The position numbers were made by a program, and so were the translations under genes. Under the pieces are notes generated by a model, which ran no database searches, had not been told where the DNA came from, and worked only from the letters and a program-made list of their open reading frames with translations. This document shows positions 50,115-53,411 of a stretch of DNA of 64,000 nt, one piece after another (the stretch's first letter is position 1; each line of letters begins with the position of its first letter). The DNA is from a virus (taxonomy: Duplodnaviria; Heunggongvirae; Uroviricota; Caudoviricetes): positions 20,026 through 84,025 of IMG/VR virus record IMGVR_UViG_2718218131_000011, one strand, 5' to 3'.

Positions 50115-50577
50115 AAAGCGGTAGAAAAAGTTAAGTTCCCGGTTGATCGAATGGATGCGAATCGCTGATCGGACTTCGATGCCAATCCGTGATCGAATAG
50201 AGCGGAATACGCAGGCAACACACTCAAGCCTGATGCAGCACGGTCAGGTAGGGGACGCCGACCTAATGTCTCGCCCTGCAAGGGCGGACGAAAGTAGATC
50301 ACTATTCCGCGCAGCTATTTAGAAAGAACAGGTATTGAATTACCTGGAGAACAACTTACTTACGTTTCCGCCACACCTTCGCTAGTTACTTTATGATGAA
50401 TGATGGTAATATTCTGGTATTGTAACGAGTGCTCAGATATACTTACATCTAAATAACAATGATATATGTTCAATTTAACCTTGAATATTTTGTAATGTTA
50501 CACGACTTTAAAATTTAGAAGAAGAGGATTCGGTTGAATCCGATATTAAATCTGAGACAGGAATATAAGGTTACACG

Positions 50578-51513
50578 ATGAAGCTTAAAAAACTACAATC
50601 TCTTGATTTTGTGAATGATTTTATGAGTCACCTAGAAACTGATTTTGAAAAAGAATTATTCACAGCTTGTTTGCGAAATTATGCATCACATGGCAACCCA
50701 TTACGTTTTCATAACTTTGCATTTTCAATTCGCGAGCTAATAAAGCATATTATCGAGAAAAAATCTCCGAATGATAAATTATTACAAGCATCGTGGTATA
50801 AGAGAGAACATGAACATTACGAAATATCTAGAAGACAGCGTTTAAAATACTGTTCTCAAGCTAAAATTTCAGATGCGTACTTGGGGGAAGAGTTCCTGGA
50901 GGAGTCGAATGAAAGAATAGATGAGATGCTTAAGCTTTATTTCTTCTTAAATAAATATACGCATATAACAGAGAAATATATGCATCCATCACCTCAAGAG
51001 TTCTTCCTGAAGGCCAAACAAATACTGCAGATCGCTACAGAAATACTAAATGGTATACATATTTGTAGAGATGAATTAATTCGTACTCTCGAAGATAAAA
51101 TTAGAAATGCAGTTATTGACACGGCGGTAAGCTCTATGCCTGAAAACCTAGTGACTATCGCGAATCATGCGTATGTAGATTACACTGAAGTCGAAGAATT
51201 TGGAATCACGTCGATTGATGATGAGTACATCAATATATATGCTTCCGGTACTGTCTATGTTACTCAAGAATATGGTTCTAGGAATGATGGGGTTAGCCTA
51301 GAAGAAAGTTATCCGTTCACGTTGCACATGGCTTCTCACTTAGACTCTCCTGAAACATTTGAAGTCATATCTGAAGCTTTAGAGGTAGACACTTCATCGT
51401 GGTACGATGATGGGGAGCAGGAGGATCAAATGATGGATATGGAAAGAAATGAAATTCATCGAATATCTGTTGCACCCCCAGACTTTGAGATGGATGACAA
51501 TGTACCATTCTAA
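50578..51513 (+). CDS. hypothetical cargo protein ending in an SSB C-terminal-tail-like peptide
   Basis: 311-aa ORF in AT-rich DNA with AT-rich promoter-like leader; no recognisable catalytic motif; C-terminus VAPPDFEMDDNVPF versus [14 protein letters not shown]. Confidence 0.6.
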   Translation: MKLKKLQSLDFVNDFMSHLETDFEKELFTACLRNYASHGNPLRFHNFAFSIRELIKHIIEKKSPNDKLLQASWYKREHEHYEISRRQRLKYCSQAKISDAYLGEEFLEESNERIDEMLKLYFFLNKYTHITEKYMHPSPQEFFLKAKQILQIATEILNGIHICRDELIRTLEDKIRNAVIDTAVSSMPENLVTIANHAYVDYTEVEEFGITSIDDEYINIYASGTVYVTQEYGSRNDGVSLEESYPFTLHMASHLDSPETFEVISEALEVDTSSWYDDGEQEDQMMDMERNEIHRISVAPPDFEMDDNVPF

Positions 51514-51699
51514 CATAAAGAAACATAGGCTAGTAGCGATGAAGTGCGGTAAAAATGGCTAAAACTAGATAAGTAATGGCAATCTGTGCCAATGAGTAAA
51601 TAACACAACCTATTAGATCTGCATTTATTTTTCAAAGGGATCATAATCGCACAGCCACCGGTTCAAGCCCGGTAGGGGACACCTTATTTGGTAGTTGTA

Positions 51700-52239
51700 C
51701 GGCGTATGGCACATGCGTCGATGAAATCAAAACAGACGATGTGCTGCGTATTTTTGTAGACCACGCTGCATTTGACGTTAGTGGGTTTGATCACTCTTTG
51801 AGTATCCTTATGAACCTTCAGCGCCGACCGTTCCGTATGAGGCCAGAACGTTGATCGATGACGGATTGGTTACCATTGATTCGGGGAATATTTCGGTAAC
51901 CCCATACAGACGGACGCCGGTACCAGCAACCGAATTCGCAGCTGAATTGCGTAAGAGTGACGTTTTTATCGTTACGCATCCCGAAAGCCTTGGATTAACT
52001 GTTCTTGAGGCGGCAATGTGTGGAGCGTTGATATTAACGCTCCACACATTGCCTTCCGCCGGATCGCCTGGATTTGGTGAACCATATGGTTATCAAGTCG
52101 CGGATTGATTGGGATGAGGTTATTGCTCGCGTTGATCGCGTGAAAAATGCTGAAAAGGTCCAGTGTCACACCTGGTCGGCAATCGCGGGAACGATGATTG
52201 AGACGTTTGCCGCGCCGAAATCACTGCGCGGCTTATAAC
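51700..52239 (+). pseudogene. remnant of a GT4-type glycosyltransferase (C-terminal part only, frameshifted)
   Basis: Frame fragments ...SDVFIVTHPESLGLTVLEAAMCGA... then in another frame ...DLVNHMVIKSRIDWDEVIARVDRVKNAEKVQCHTWSAIAGTMIETFAAPKSLRGL*; no N-terminal domain; interrupted by a palindrome. Confidence 0.5.
52012..52053. repeat. 42-bp perfect palindrome inside the glycosyltransferase remnant
   Basis: GGCAATGTGTGGAGCGTT-GATATT-AACGCTCCACACATTGCC (18-bp arms). Confidence 0.9.
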
Positions 52240-52244
52240 ATCAC

Positions 52245-52946
52245 CTATCCTTGCTGCGCTTGGGAATTTGAAGATGACGTTTTTTCTGTGCCACTATTGG
52301 TTATATTATCTGTGGTTTCGTGAATATCTTTTCCTGGTACAGTCATATCAACAATTTTATATAGCCCTTTTCTCAGACCTGTCGTGGCATCTTCGTCGAA
52401 AGCTGTATAAATTGTGAACATTAGACCAACAGAAAATGCAGTAGCAAAAAGTTTAGGTACGCCAGAGAACAGAAACTTCATAAGTCTCCACAATAAATCA
52501 AGGATTTTATCCCAGAGATGCTCTGGCTCTTTAATTTTTTGGCTGTAGAGAACCGCACCTTTGGACAGCTTATTTAATGCTTTTTTTTCGGCAATTTTTA
52601 ACTTTTTTTGCGCTAGTTCAAGTTCTTTATCATAGTGGTTTTTTATTTTAATAATTTCCGCATTAAACCGTTTCGTCATGTTATGGTTAGCGGTGAAAAT
52701 ATAAGCGTCAAGAGTGTTTTTAGCTTTATCTCTAAAAACATCTAATTGCTTTTGAGAACTAATGCAATAGTTGTGATATTTTGCTAACTCCTCATTGATC
52801 TCATCTTCAGTCTTGCCCATCTTACGAGCATTATCGGCTATTTCATTTTTGAAACCTTTGTAAATCGTGTATGAAATTAGTTGCTCGATGTTATTGGGGT
52901 CTTTTACTAATTCAGTAAACACCCATTGCTTTTGCTGTTCAATCAT
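52245..52946 (-). CDS. hypothetical cargo protein with C-terminal transmembrane segment(s)
   Basis: 233-aa ORF in AT-rich DNA; Lys/Glu-rich helical N-terminal domain; hydrophobic LWRLMKFLFSGVPKLFATAFSVGLMFTIYTAF. Confidence 0.55.
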   Translation of the reverse strand: MIEQQKQWVFTELVKDPNNIEQLISYTIYKGFKNEIADNARKMGKTEDEINEELAKYHNYCISSQKQLDVFRDKAKNTLDAYIFTANHNMTKRFNAEIIKIKNHYDKELELAQKKLKIAEKKALNKLSKGAVLYSQKIKEPEHLWDKILDLLWRLMKFLFSGVPKLFATAFSVGLMFTIYTAFDEDATTGLRKGLYKIVDMTVPGKDIHETTDNITNSGTEKTSSSNSQAQQG

Positions 52947-52957
52947 TGCGCACCAAA

Positions 52958-52981
52958 CAAAAAAAAGCCCCGATAAGGGGC
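52958..52981 (-). terminator. intrinsic terminator between the 130-aa and 233-aa cargo genes
   Basis: Minus-strand GCCCCTTATCGGGGC followed by TTTTTTTT. Confidence 0.55.
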
Positions 52982-53004
52982 ATTAATCATGTTTTATGAA
53001 AGCA

Positions 53005-53397
53005 TCAAACCTTGATGGTTTTACGAACTTGTATGAAAGCTTCTTGAAAATATTTTCGACTTTTGCTTTGCGTAAGTACACTGTCCGTAAATGCTTTATT
53101 AATTTTAACGGCAGAAGAACCTGTGCCAGACAGTTTCTTGATAACGTCTGCCTGTTTAGCCATCACTTTTCCAGCTAAAGATGCACTTTTAGTTATATGC
53201 TTGCTGTTAGTGACTATTTTTTTTGCAGCGACACTCGCCACGGCTGCTTCAGAGATCTTACGAATCTCTTCCGGGCTGAGGTCTGGCATGCAATGATAAT
53301 TAGTCATATTGTGCTCCTCTATACGCCCAACAATGTTATCACTTGTATCCCAAAAATCATATATTTTTGATGTGGATACTGCTTTAGTGTAATTCAT
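53005..53397 (-). CDS. hypothetical cargo protein
   Basis: 130-aa ORF in AT-rich DNA, no recognisable motif. Confidence 0.5.
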   Translation of the reverse strand: MNYTKAVSTSKIYDFWDTSDNIVGRIEEHNMTNYHCMPDLSPEEIRKISEAAVASVAAKKIVTNSKHITKSASLAGKVMAKQADVIKKLSGTGSSAVKINKAFTDSVLTQSKSRKYFQEAFIQVRKTIKV

Positions 53398-53411
53398 AGA
53401 TTTAAATTTGG

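What the first reader, a model, noticed from the sequence alone, without database searches (positions are those of the whole stretch)
50300..53410. AT-rich island of three uncharacterised genes at the P1 tci/ban hotspot
Between IS21 and the baseplate spike gene there are three ORFs (311 aa +, 233 aa -, 130 aa -) in DNA much more AT-rich than the surrounding backbone. None shows a motif I can assign. They occupy the position where, as I recall, P1 carries tRNAs-plp-upl-tciABC-ban-dbn, and no DnaB-like ban gene is present. A tRNA 3' fragment, a glycosyltransferase remnant with a palindrome and two IS elements sit alongside, which is the usual picture of a repeatedly remodelled cargo hotspot. This is the best candidate locus for an undescribed defence or anti-defence system.
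Basis: partly seen in the sequence, partly recalled or inferred. Interest (0 to 1): 0.8.

Follow-up and report, generated by a model that had tools for sequence, protein, structure and literature searches.

The report
Two separate cargo modules in P1
The AT-rich "three-gene island" in this P1-like phage-plasmid is really two unrelated imported gene modules, a stand-alone predicted nuclease left behind by a P2-like prophage and an unknown two-gene membrane cassette, and both are plausible but untested phage-defence candidates.

Summary
Three intact ORFs lie in DNA of 36-38% GC against a 47.7% backbone, where P1 carries tRNAs-plp-upl-tciABC-ban-dbn, and ban is absent. Three corrections are needed. 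(1) It is not one island. Two modules flank a normal-GC dbn pseudogene, and each occurs without the other in related plasmids. (2) ORF1 (311 aa) has a clear family: Pfam pP_pnuc_1 + pP_pnuc_2 and PADLOC Aga_Nuclease ("Argonaute-associated nuclease"). No Argonaute was seen near it in about 45 places sampled. It is unrelated to the characterised BPAN nuclease bAgaN, and my HEPN idea failed. Module A is the scar of a P2-like prophage (decayed integrase, ORF1, tRNA-Ile att fragment) at P1's own trnI. ORF1 is under strong purifying selection (dN/dS 0.06). Its disordered acidic tail ends ...DFEMDDNVPF, resembling the E. coli SSB tip ...DFDDDIPF. (3) ORF3 is really 100 aa. With ORF2 (233 aa, coiled coil plus hydrophobic anchor) it forms a conserved two-gene cassette, with a terminator-like hairpin between the genes in at least five of seven loci. 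The cassette also occurs in a defence island, at a prophage edge and on a conjugative element. The defence reading is plausible for both modules but unproven.

The parts
45799..47127 (+). TnpB-only IS200/IS605-type element (context, an independent insertion). It sits after TTTAG with no target duplication.
   Evidence: Absent from P1, E. albertii L003 and L045, present in L002 and L004. RefSeq annotates a TnpB family protein.
47575..50213 (+). IS21-family element (istA/istB), a late insertion flanked by the direct repeat GGCAAC.
   Evidence: Absent from otherwise identical plasmids L002 and L004. Junction sequences.
50310..50560 (+). Decayed C-terminal remnant of a P2/186-type tyrosine integrase (frameshift and stop codons).
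   Evidence: tblastn with the L012 integrase aligns aa 260-333, E = 9e-18, across two frames with in-frame stops. The DNA is 81.5% identical to the int end of a Klebsiella P2-like prophage.
50578..51513 (+). ORF1, 311 aa: pP_pnuc_1 + pP_pnuc_2 (PADLOC Aga_Nuclease) family protein. It has an N-terminal helical domain, a C-terminal NTF2-like sheet domain and an acidic tail.
   Evidence: dN/dS = 0.058 against the Klebsiella copy.
51406..51510 (+). ORF1 disordered acidic tail (aa 277-311, 12 acidic and 2 basic residues) ending DDNVPF. This is an SSB-Ct-like tip at nt 51493-51510.
   Evidence: pLDDT below 50 at aa 295-311. E. coli SSB ends PPMDFDDDIPF. The motif is kept in 20 of 23 distinct long-form tails and in 0 of 57 short forms. 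Coordinates.
51642..51683 (+). 3' fragment of tRNA-Ile(CAT), the att scar. The sequences of the P2-like prophage end and of P1 trnI overlap here.
   Evidence: Window 51641-51720 matches the P1 trnI 3' part plus downstream DNA at 87.5%. The L012 prophage homology runs to 51683. ARAGORN finds no intact tRNA.
51723..52231 (+). dbn/glt glycosyltransferase pseudogene (3' half only, normal GC 0.49). It separates the two modules.
   Evidence: 92.5% nucleotide identity to P1 dbn. tblastn aligns only aa 161-326 at 56%.
52012..52053 (.). Perfect inverted repeat (18-bp arms, 6-nt spacer) inside the dbn remnant. P1 has an imperfect quasi-palindrome at this position.
52245..52946 (-). ORF2, 233 aa: conserved N-terminal helical domain (aa ~8-75), a 73-residue helix, and a conserved hydrophobic segment KFLFSGVPKLFATAFS.GL.F (probable membrane anchor).
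   Evidence: PHROG 25194, unknown function.
52959..52981 (-). Intrinsic-terminator-like hairpin (GCCCC-TTATC-GGGGC followed by T8) between ORF3 and ORF2.
   Evidence: The same GC hairpin plus T-run is present in 5 of 7 diverged copies of the cassette and is weaker in the other 2.
53005..53307 (-). ORF3, 100 aa from the likely true start: a small basic protein (18 K+R, 7 D+E), always upstream of ORF2-type genes.
   Evidence: PHROG 34496, unknown function.
53412..54044 (-). P1 gene 5 (baseplate), the right-hand backbone boundary. ORF3 and ORF2 lie downstream of it on the same strand.

Best explanation
The interval is a composite of two unrelated, horizontally acquired cargo modules at two neighbouring points of a P1-like phage-plasmid.

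Module A (about 50214-51683) is the scar of a P2/186-like prophage joined to P1's own tRNA-Ile gene (trnI). Only the prophage's int-proximal accessory gene, ORF1, has stayed intact. The integrase has decayed, and P1's trnA..tciC, ban and the 5' half of dbn were deleted.

ORF1 is a stand-alone member of the pP_pnuc / Aga_Nuclease family. I infer that it is a single-gene immunity or exclusion effector expressed by the lysogen. In this reading, a helical domain carrying the family-invariant R52, R85 and T128-H129 attacks nucleic acid. An NTF2-like domain (G224, G233, D237, P246) acts in sensing or oligomerisation. In Enterobacterales, a disordered acidic tail with an SSB-like tip tethers the protein to SSB-binding proteins, or auto-inhibits it until infection.

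Module B (52232-53430) is an autonomous two-gene cassette inserted between dbn and baseplate gene 5. It encodes a small basic protein (ORF3), then a terminator-like hairpin, then a coiled-coil protein with a hydrophobic anchor (ORF2). I infer a toxin-antitoxin-like abortive-infection or exclusion unit, in which ORF3 is made in excess and the membrane protein ORF2 is made only by read-through.

Shown: the anatomy, origins, independence, conservation and family membership. Inferred: all biochemical activities and the defence role.
For: Independence of the modules:
- Module A occurs without B in NZ_CP037905.1.
- Module B occurs with intact ban and glt and without ORF1 in E. albertii plasmids.
- Among complete E. 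coli genomes, 18 of 5426 carry ORF1 and 10 of 5426 carry module B.

Origin of module A:
- Window 50305-51683 is 81.5% identical to the int-ORF1-att end of a Klebsiella P2-like prophage.
- The integrase is a pseudogene, and the junction lies in the tRNA-Ile 3' segment that continues into DNA downstream of P1 trnI.
- Homologues at 90% and 70% identity sit 13-18 bp after int in P2/186-like prophages.

ORF1 family and conservation:
- Pfam and PADLOC hits.
- 751 clusters at 50% identity, nearly all stand-alone proteins of 270-300 aa.
- Invariant residues.
- dN/dS 0.058.
- Confident AF2 model with two domains.

ORF1 genomic context:
- No conserved neighbour in 30 species.
- Neighbours elsewhere include AbiH (4-bp gap), Abi_C, an E1/E2+JAB system and DUF3732/DUF6521.

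SSB-like tip. The SSB-Ct hexapeptide DDDIPF is a known protein-docking motif (PMC5872125 abstract).

Module B:
- The pair is conserved in seven loci with unrelated surroundings: a Pantoea island with type I R-M, KAP NTPase and AbiH, a Cronobacter lambdoid prophage edge, a Dickeya conjugative element, an Enterobacter plasmid, and a second allele at the same P1 site.
- Conserved intergenic hairpin.
- Conserved N-terminal domain and hydrophobic segment.
Against: - No experiment or paper was found for either family.
- The HEPN R-x4-H motif is not conserved across the family.
- No Argonaute was found near any member sampled, so the catalogued functional context is absent.
- ORF1 lies in the orientation of P1's C1-repressed ban operon, so lytic rather than lysogenic expression is possible.
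- SSB-tip binding is untested, and the tail is not docked in the model.
- ORF2's hydrophobic segment peaks at Kyte-Doolittle 1.47, below the classical 1.6 cut-off.
- ORF2's fold search is uninformative.
- PADLOC hits for ORF2 are coiled-coil noise plus weak AbiZ matches.
- Defence association rests on a handful of neighbourhoods, not on a statistical enrichment test.
Confidence: 0.55

Rival explanations
1. ORF1 is an anti-defence or host-takeover factor rather than a defence gene. Its SSB-like acidic tail would act as a decoy that occupies the SSB-Ct pockets of host repair and recombination enzymes (or of defence sensors that monitor SSB), to the benefit of P1 or P2 replication.
For: - The SSB-Ct-like tip is conserved in enterobacterial forms.
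- The gene is carried only on phages, prophages and plasmids in the close clade.
- It is co-oriented with P1's early, C1-controlled ban operon.
Against: - In P2-like prophages it follows C and int on the lysogenic side, the usual place for genes expressed in the lysogen.
- Most family members (277 aa) lack the tail altogether, so the tail cannot be the core function.
- Family members sit beside Abi genes and other defence systems in chromosomes and plasmids.
- At 311 aa with two conserved globular domains, it is larger than a typical decoy.
Confidence: 0.15
2. Module B (ORF3-ORF2) is a superinfection-exclusion, entry-exclusion or lysis-timing device, not a toxin-antitoxin-like abortive-infection system. 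In this reading ORF2 is a membrane-anchored protein that blocks incoming DNA or modulates holin action.
For: - ORF2 has a conserved hydrophobic anchor and a long coiled coil.
- The cassette sits at the end of the P1 tail/baseplate late operon, at a lambdoid prophage edge, and next to type IV secretion genes on a Dickeya element.
- There are weak AbiZ-model hits in 6 of 24 homologues. From my own recollection, not checked here, AbiZ is a membrane protein that accelerates lysis.
Against: - There is no signal peptide or periplasmic domain. The conserved domain is N-terminal and cytoplasmic in a tail-anchored topology.
- The intercistronic terminator design is unusual for simple exclusion proteins.
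- The AbiZ hits are weak (best 1.3e-4) and sit among coiled-coil noise.
Confidence: 0.2
3. The three ORFs form one three-gene system.
For: They are adjacent, share low GC, and occur together in 12 plasmid records.
Against: - Each module occurs alone.
- They are separated by normal-GC P1 backbone.
- They lie on opposite strands.
- ORF1 comes from a P2-like prophage end, whereas the ORF3-ORF2 pair travels on its own in at least five non-P1 places (L046, L047, L048/49, L050, L051/52) without any ORF1 homologue.
Confidence: 0.02
4. ORF1 is a stranded, functionless leftover of an Argonaute system that lost its pAgo, and the AT-rich DNA is decaying junk.
For: The family is named 'pPIWI-associating nuclease' / Aga_Nuclease, and no pAgo is present.
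Against: - dN/dS is 0.058, while the adjacent integrase has decayed.
- The exact ORF1 sequence is recorded on 275 contigs.
- The stand-alone state is the rule in all of the roughly 45 places sampled across Gamma- and Alphaproteobacteria.
Confidence: 0.05

Closest known systems
Pfam PF18165 pP_pnuc_1 + PF18166 pP_pnuc_2 ('predicted pPIWI-associating nuclease') = PADLOC PDLC02413 Aga_Nuclease
   Same: ORF1 matches both Pfam domains far above the gathering scores (118.9 and 115.5 bits against 26.3 and 25). It matches the PADLOC model end to end (1.2e-62). It also keeps every family-invariant residue.
   Different: - No Argonaute/PIWI gene lies nearby, here or in any of the roughly 45 places sampled.
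- The enterobacterial clade has an extra 34-aa acidic tail with an SSB-like tip.
- The family has no experimental characterisation that I could find.
BPAN long-B pAgo system effector bAgaN (Song et al. 2023, PMC10620215)
   Same: Both are catalogued as Argonaute-associated 'nucleases' of two domains. bAgaN is the characterised example of how such effectors work: collateral DNA degradation leading to abortive infection.
   Different: - The two are unrelated in sequence (BLASTP E = 1.9).
- bAgaN maps to a different PADLOC family, Aga_Helical-REase.
- bAgaN has a PD-(D/E)XK D-EVK site, which ORF1 lacks.
- In BPAN, pAgo lies upstream of bAgaN; ORF1 has no pAgo.
SSB C-terminal tip (SSB-Ct, DDDIPF) on an intrinsically disordered linker
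   Same: ORF1 ends ...APPDFEMDDNVPF after a low-confidence, acidic 35-residue segment. E. coli SSB ends ...PPMDFDDDIPF.
   Different: - ORF1 gives no SSB-family or OB-fold Pfam hit.
- The motif is DDNVPF, not DDDIPF.
- Binding to SSB-interacting proteins is untested.
- Short-form family members lack the tail.
HEPN RNase toxins (RnlA, LsoA, AbiA C-terminal domain, Csx1)
   Different: - R33 and H38 are not conserved across the family (R in 23/147, H in 12/147).
- There is no Pfam HEPN hit.
Accessory 'moron' and defence genes at prophage ends and hotspots (P2-type phages; Rousset et al. 2022, seen only as a reference in PMC10879196)
   Same: ORF1 homologues sit directly after int at the att-proximal end of P2/186-like prophages. 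The ORF3-ORF2 cassette sits at a lambdoid prophage edge and at the end of the P1 late tail operon.
   Different: From my recollection, not checked here, the published P2 hotspots are at other positions (old/tin and Z/fun), and neither gene family is among the systems validated there.
Toxin-antitoxin / Abi cassettes with a terminator between the protective and the toxic component (ToxIN/AbiQ type III TA; recalled, not checked here)
   Same: The layout is an upstream component, then an intrinsic-terminator-like hairpin, then a downstream putative effector within about 55 bp. This is conserved across diverged copies.
   Different: - The upstream component here is a conserved protein (ORF3), not an RNA repeat array.
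- ORF2 is a coiled-coil protein with a hydrophobic anchor, not an endoribonuclease.
- No toxicity data exist.

Membership tests
pP_pnuc / PADLOC Aga_Nuclease family | Both Pfam domains (PF18165 and PF18166) above gathering score, in this order, in a protein of about 270-310 aa | tested here: met
   118.9 and 115.5 bits against cut-offs of 26.3 and 25. PADLOC PDLC02413 matches positions 5-267 of 267, E = 1.2e-62.
pP_pnuc / PADLOC Aga_Nuclease family | Family-invariant residues (R52, W73, R85, T128-H129, G224, G233, D237, P246) | tested here: met
   All are present in ORF1, and they are 93-100% conserved in 147 diverse members.
pP_pnuc / PADLOC Aga_Nuclease family | Genomic association with a prokaryotic Argonaute (pPIWI) gene, which is the source of the family's name | tested here: not met
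   No pAgo in the window neighbourhood. No conserved large neighbour in 30 species. None in about 15 further places.
pP_pnuc / PADLOC Aga_Nuclease family | Nuclease activity | not testable with these tools
   This is only a database prediction. No nuclease fold was recovered and no paper was found.
BPAN effector bAgaN (PADLOC Aga_Helical-REase) | Sequence homology to EcbAgaN and the PD-(D/E)XK D-EVK catalytic motif | tested here: not met
   BLASTP E = 1.9. EcbAgaN hits Aga_Helical-REase, not Aga_Nuclease. No D-E.K motif appears in the ORF1 alignment.
HEPN superfamily RNases | Conserved R-x4-6-H catalytic motif | tested here: not met
   R33 and H38 are conserved only in the close clade. Across the family R occurs in 23/147 and H in 12/147.
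HEPN superfamily RNases | HEPN four-helix fold | tested here: inconclusive
SSB-Ct-bearing proteins | Disordered acidic linker ending in an acidic-x-x-P-F carboxy terminus | tested here: met
   aa 277-311 hold 12 D/E and 2 K/R and have low pLDDT. The protein ends DDNVPF against SSB's DDDIPF. The motif is kept in 20 of 23 distinct long-form tails.
SSB-Ct-bearing proteins | Binding of the tip to SSB-interacting proteins | not testable with these tools
   Needs peptide-binding or pull-down assays.
P1 backbone genes of this interval (plp, upl, tciABC, ban, dbn) | Protein similarity to the P1 products | tested here: not met
   tblastn of Ban, TciA, Plp and Upl finds nothing in the window. Only a dbn 3' pseudogene remains. 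The three ORFs have no match in 50,697 phage records.
Known defence systems in PADLOC-DB v2 (for ORF2 and ORF3) | Significant match to any model | tested here: not met
   There are only coiled-coil noise hits (LeoBC, JetC, ZorA), weak AbiZ hits (6 of 24 homologues, best 1.3e-4) and PDC-M64B/C at 0.002-0.01.
Toxin-antitoxin-like two-gene cassette (for ORF3-ORF2) | Strict co-occurrence of the two genes in fixed order across unrelated contexts | tested here: met
   Seven loci have a 100-110-aa gene 53-58 bp upstream of the 207-239-aa gene.
Toxin-antitoxin-like two-gene cassette (for ORF3-ORF2) | Toxicity of one partner and neutralisation by the other | not testable with these tools
   Needs expression experiments.

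The most novel reading that the evidence does not exclude
The 'Argonaute-associated nuclease' family may in fact be a widespread stand-alone immune effector: 751 clusters, with no Argonaute near any member sampled. Its enterobacterial prophage-borne branch would have acquired a mimic of the SSB C-terminal tip, either to plug into the host's SSB interactome or to bait phage proteins that bind SSB, as its sensing or activation step. Separately, ORF3-hairpin-ORF2 would be a previously unrecognised two-gene membrane abortive-infection or exclusion system, with the dosage of its effector set by an intercistronic terminator.
Probability: 0.15. Interest if true: 0.75.

Novelty: new variant of a known kind. 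Interest (0 to 1): 0.55.

Why it matters
If ORF1 protects lysogens on its own, a family now filed in defence databases only as an Argonaute accessory would need to be re-filed as a single-gene system. PADLOC-type tools would not call a system without the pAgo, so they would miss it. An SSB-tail mimic on an immune effector would be a new way for a defence protein to couple to replication and repair machinery, or to detect phage proteins that target SSB.

The ORF3-ORF2 cassette is a compact unit that is easy to clone. It has no annotation anywhere but recurs in defence islands and in prophage, plasmid and ICE cargo slots.

The locus also shows a P2-like prophage end joined to a tRNA gene carried by another temperate phage (P1). 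It documents how the P1 dmt-gene 5 interval is rebuilt by integration, deletion and IS insertion, including loss of ban.

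Tried and rejected

2. ORF1 = BPAN bAgaN. The EcbAgaN sequence taken from the paper's supplement shows no similarity and belongs to a different PADLOC family. Rejected.

3. TnpB (an RNA-guided nuclease 0.85 kb upstream in IS21-free relatives) as a functional stand-in for pAgo. The TnpB element is an independent IS insertion, separated from ORF1 by P1 backbone and the int remnant. It is absent from every other ORF1-family context. Rejected as coincidence.

4. One three-gene system. 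Rejected on distribution.

5. Sequence search of the PDB with ORF1, with its family profile and with its tail gave nothing meaningful. Foldseek against the PDB gave nothing below E = 0.09.

7. The afdb50 fold library was unavailable.

8. tblastn of all three proteins against 50,697 phage records found no match.

9. Literature searches for the Pfam names or accessions, for P1 hotspot defence and for SSB-tail mimicry in defence found nothing specific. The Burroughs 2013 and Anantharaman 2013 papers do not describe this family in their text.

10. The ORF3 homologue search by word index found only 2 proteins. The family was instead assembled from the neighbours of ORF2 homologues.

11. The simple promoter scan found no more sites than in shuffled sequence (7 against 10.4 expected), so no promoter is claimed.

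Full report
WHAT THE WINDOW IS. The stretch 50100-53500 is 100% identical to E. coli plasmid pSLK172-1 (NZ_CP017632.1). That plasmid is 369 kb, is typed IncHI2A/IncN/IncY, and contains a P1-like phage-plasmid. P1-type genes flank the interval: hrdC and dmt on the left, and baseplate/tail genes 5, 6, 24, 7, 25 and 26 on the right.

OBSERVATION. The three ORFs exist at 50578-51513 (+, 311 aa), 52245-52946 (-, 233 aa) and 53005-53397 (-, 130 aa as the longest ORF). GC is 0.379 over 50215-51722 and 0.365 over 52239-53411. Backbone 1200-bp windows have mean 0.477 and sd 0.031, and only about 1% are that low. The 516 bp between the two blocks have normal GC (0.492) and are P1 dbn sequence.

BREAKPOINTS AGAINST P1 (NC_005856):
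- Window to 45798 is P1 hrdC, dmt and the dicF-like region. The ban promoter and C1 operator are retained with a few changes at about 45538-45567.
- 45799-47127 is a TnpB-only IS inserted after TTTAG without duplication.
- 47128-47463 is P1 DNA up to just before trnA.
- 47575-50213 is an IS21 element flanked by GGCAAC. It is absent from otherwise identical plasmids.
- 50214-51640 is foreign DNA.
- 51641-51720 is the 3' part of P1 trnI plus downstream DNA.
- At 51721/22, P1's ban and the 5' half of dbn are cleanly deleted.
- 51723-52231 is the 3' half of dbn (92.5% nucleotide identity, but a pseudogene).
- 52232-53430 is foreign DNA that replaces 75 bp of P1.
- From 53431 onward is gene 5.
Ban, TciA, Plp and Upl have no tblastn hit anywhere in the window.

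NOT ONE ISLAND. NZ_CP037905.1 has TnpB and ORF1 but passes straight from the dbn remnant to gene 5. E. albertii plasmids have intact ban and glt followed by ORF2 and ORF3, and no ORF1. A second allele of the ORF3-ORF2 pair (44-49% identity) occupies the same site in other P1-like plasmids. Among 5426 complete E. coli genomes, 18 carry ORF1 and 10 carry the ORF2/3 block. These are almost always on P1-like plasmids. The 'island' is two modules.

MODULE A, ORIGIN. Window 50305-51683 is 81.5% identical in DNA to the end of a Klebsiella P2/186-like prophage (L012). That end comprises the last 74 codons of the integrase, an ORF1 homologue of 90% protein identity, and a tRNA 3' fragment. In the window the integrase piece is broken by a frameshift and stop codons, while ORF1 is intact. 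The tRNA fragment is the anticodon-to-acceptor part of a tRNA-Ile(CAT). It overlaps exactly the 3' part of P1's own trnI and continues into the DNA that follows trnI in P1.

The simplest reading is that a P2-like phage integrated into, or recombined at, the tRNA gene carried by P1. Later deletions then removed everything except int'-ORF1-att. Homologues at 90% and 70% identity sit 13-18 bp downstream of int, after the CI-type repressor gene, in Klebsiella and Yersinia prophages. There the gene is therefore part of the lysogenic side of the prophage. Against the Klebsiella copy, ORF1 has dN 0.048 and dS 0.816, giving dN/dS 0.058. The gene is kept by selection while its neighbour decays.

MODULE A, WHAT ORF1 IS. 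ORF1 hits Pfam pP_pnuc_1 (aa 17-152) and pP_pnuc_2 (aa 163-276), and PADLOC Aga_Nuclease over the whole model. The family holds 751 clusters at 50% identity, nearly all stand-alone proteins of 270-300 aa.

I sampled about 45 places. These were 30 species from a genome scan, where the only recurrent neighbour was an integrase in 5 of 30, plus prophages, plasmids and metagenome contigs. None has an Argonaute gene. Several members lie beside other immunity genes:
- AbiH with a 4-bp gap
- an Abi_C protein
- an E1/E2 + JAB system
- DUF3732/DUF6521 genes

The one Argonaute-associated nuclease that has been characterised is bAgaN of the BPAN system. It is a PD-(D/E)XK enzyme with a D-EVK motif (PMC10620215). 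Its sequence, taken from the paper's supplement, shows no similarity to ORF1 and belongs to a different PADLOC family. ORF1's 'nuclease' label is therefore a database prediction only.

The close clade has R33-N-Y-A-S-H38, which looked like a HEPN R-x4-H motif. In 147 diverse members these two positions are not conserved. The invariant positions are R52, W73, R85, T128-H129, G224, G233, D237 and P246. I therefore reject the HEPN assignment. I propose only that R52, R85 and H129 form the active or binding site.

AN SSB-LIKE TAIL. The 311-aa forms (Escherichia, Klebsiella, Yersinia, Enterobacter, Pantoea, Ewingella, Edwardsiella) carry 34 extra residues that the 277-aa forms lack. The stretch from aa 277 to the end is acidic (12 D/E, 2 K/R), is predicted disordered, and ends ...APPDFEMDDNVPF. 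E. coli K-12 SSB ends ...PPMDFDDDIPF. The DDDIPF hexapeptide is the conserved docking motif for SSB's partner proteins (PMC5872125 abstract).

The acidic-x-x-P-F end is kept in 20 of 23 distinct long-form tails, although the linker varies freely, and in 0 of 57 short forms. Two unrelated family clusters end ...NNFDDDVPF and ...LEFLDNDIPF. ORF1 is the only one of 153 ORFs (>=60 aa) in the window that ends this way. I found no paper describing such a tail on a non-SSB defence protein. Binding is untested. The tail could recruit ORF1 to SSB-interacting enzymes, compete with SSB, bait phage proteins, or fold back as an auto-inhibitor.

MODULE B. On the minus strand the order is gene 5, ORF3, ORF2. 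ORF3's real start is almost certainly 53307. An AGGAG lies 6 nt upstream, all six homologues begin there, and RefSeq uses that start in the source record and in E. albertii. This gives a 100-aa basic protein with a conserved N-terminus (RRMPALSPEEIRKIS..AVA.VAAQKIVT) and C-terminus (SVLSQS..R.Y.Q.SF.QVRK).

ORF2 has these parts:
- a strongly conserved N-terminal domain (KKWVFTELVKDPNNIEQLISYAIYKGFKDE...YHD.CL.S.KQLDVFR)
- a helix of about 73 residues
- a conserved hydrophobic segment (KFLFSGVPKLFATAFS.GL.F, Kyte-Doolittle 19-residue maximum 1.47)
- a disordered tail

The ORF2 family is small, with 33 clusters, all from Enterobacterales. In every context examined, a 100-110-aa ORF3-type gene lies 53-58 bp upstream of the ORF2-type gene:
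- two alleles at the P1 site
- an Enterobacter plasmid beside dcm/DUF4928, HNH and DUF3800 genes
- a Dickeya conjugative element beside ArdC, CcdAB and TerB_N/BrxC-like genes
- the edge of Cronobacter lambdoid prophages
- a Pantoea island between a type I R-M system plus KAP NTPase and AbiH

Between the two genes lies a GC-rich hairpin followed by a T-run (window 52959-52981). The same kind of structure is present in five of seven diverged copies and is weaker in the other two.

No Pfam, NCBIfam or PADLOC model matches meaningfully. The PHROG families are of unknown function. The fold search returns only generic coiled coils. A 211-aa Klebsiella plasmid protein shares the N-terminal domain, coiled coil and hydrophobic-helix layout, with no ORF3-like gene annotated or evident upstream.

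HOW IT MOST LIKELY WORKS (INFERENCE). ORF1 would be a single-gene immunity or exclusion effector carried as prophage cargo. It may cleave nucleic acid through the R52/R85/H129 site, and in Enterobacterales it may be controlled or localised through its SSB-like tail. I put this at about 40%.

The ORF3-ORF2 cassette would be a toxin-antitoxin-like unit. The small protein is made in excess and the membrane-anchored coiled-coil protein is made by terminator read-through, and the unit acts in abortive infection or exclusion. I put this at about 30%.

The structural and evolutionary account (two modules, their origins, breakpoints and family memberships) is well supported, at about 85-90%.

NOVELTY AND VERDICT. 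ORF1 is a new variant of a catalogued but uncharacterised family: it stands alone, is prophage-borne and carries an SSB-like tail. Module B belongs to no described family. Neither module has functional evidence. Interest is moderate (0.55). There are two concrete and cheap experiments, one unexpected feature (the SSB-Ct mimic), and a likely mislabelled database family. All function is still inferred.

Noticed in passing
window 51406-51510 (tip 51493-51510): ORF1 ends in a disordered acidic tail, ...PDFEMDDNVPF, that resembles the E. coli SSB C-terminal docking tip, ...MDFDDDIPF. The motif is conserved in the 311-aa enterobacterial forms and absent from the 277-aa forms. It recurs in two unrelated family clusters (P0200 ...FDDDVPF, P0155 ...LDNDIPF).
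   Followed up: partly
window 50310-50560 and 51642-51683: A decayed P2-type integrase C-terminus and a tRNA-Ile(CAT) 3' fragment bracket ORF1. The fragment coincides with P1's own trnI. A P2-like prophage therefore seems to have joined the P1 genome at the tRNA gene that P1 carries.
   Followed up: yes
window 52959-52981 (- strand): A strong terminator-like hairpin (GCCCC-TTATC-GGGGC followed by T8) sits between ORF3 and ORF2, 12 nt before the ORF2 start codon. Equivalent hairpins occur in diverged copies from Dickeya, Cronobacter, Pantoea and E. albertii.
   Followed up: partly
window 52012-52053: The dbn pseudogene holds a perfect 18+18 bp inverted repeat where P1 has an imperfect quasi-palindrome. 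The pattern looks like template-switch 'correction' of a quasi-palindrome. Rfam's weak MIR397 hit at 52003-52057 is this hairpin.
   Followed up: partly
window 45799-47127; Rfam hit 47078-47181: A TnpB-only IS605-type element is inserted after TTTAG without target duplication. A sub-threshold Rfam hit (tmRNA_permuted, 33 bits, E = 9e-4) spans its right end. This may reflect the structured right end or guide RNA of the element.
   Followed up: no
window ~45538-45567: P1's ban promoter and C1 operator region is retained with a few substitutions, although ban itself is gone. TnpB, IS21 and ORF1 all lie downstream in the same orientation, so ORF1 might be read from this repressor-controlled promoter.
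   Followed up: partly
window ~1000-3200 and ~25000-26300: Two other patches with GC below 0.40 in 1200-bp windows. These are possible further cargo insertions in the P1-like backbone.
   Followed up: no
L054 224-1957; L016 4648-5478; L021 8890-9642; L024 754-1506: A distant ORF1-family gene starts 4 bp after an AbiH gene, which looks like an operon. A 250-276-aa neighbour family, carrying Pfam Abi_C in the Yersinia copy, lies next to the ORF1 homologue in 3 of 30 species.
   Followed up: no
NZ_CP101271.1 (hits H23, H136): In one P1-like plasmid ORF1 is interrupted by an IS3-family element, so the gene is dispensable for plasmid maintenance.
   Followed up: no
L045 (NZ_CP143628.1) 4615-7438: Another P1-like lineage carries a 44-49%-identical allele of the ORF3-ORF2 pair at the same site. 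It has lost everything between dmt and that pair (tRNAs, tci, ban, dbn), and a 137-aa gene of unknown function lies there instead.
   Followed up: no
whole window / NZ_CP017632.1: The P1-like element is embedded in a 369-kb plasmid typed as conjugative (IncHI2A/IncN/IncY). The phage-plasmid appears to be fused into a megaplasmid, which exceeds the packaging capacity of a P1 head.
   Followed up: no
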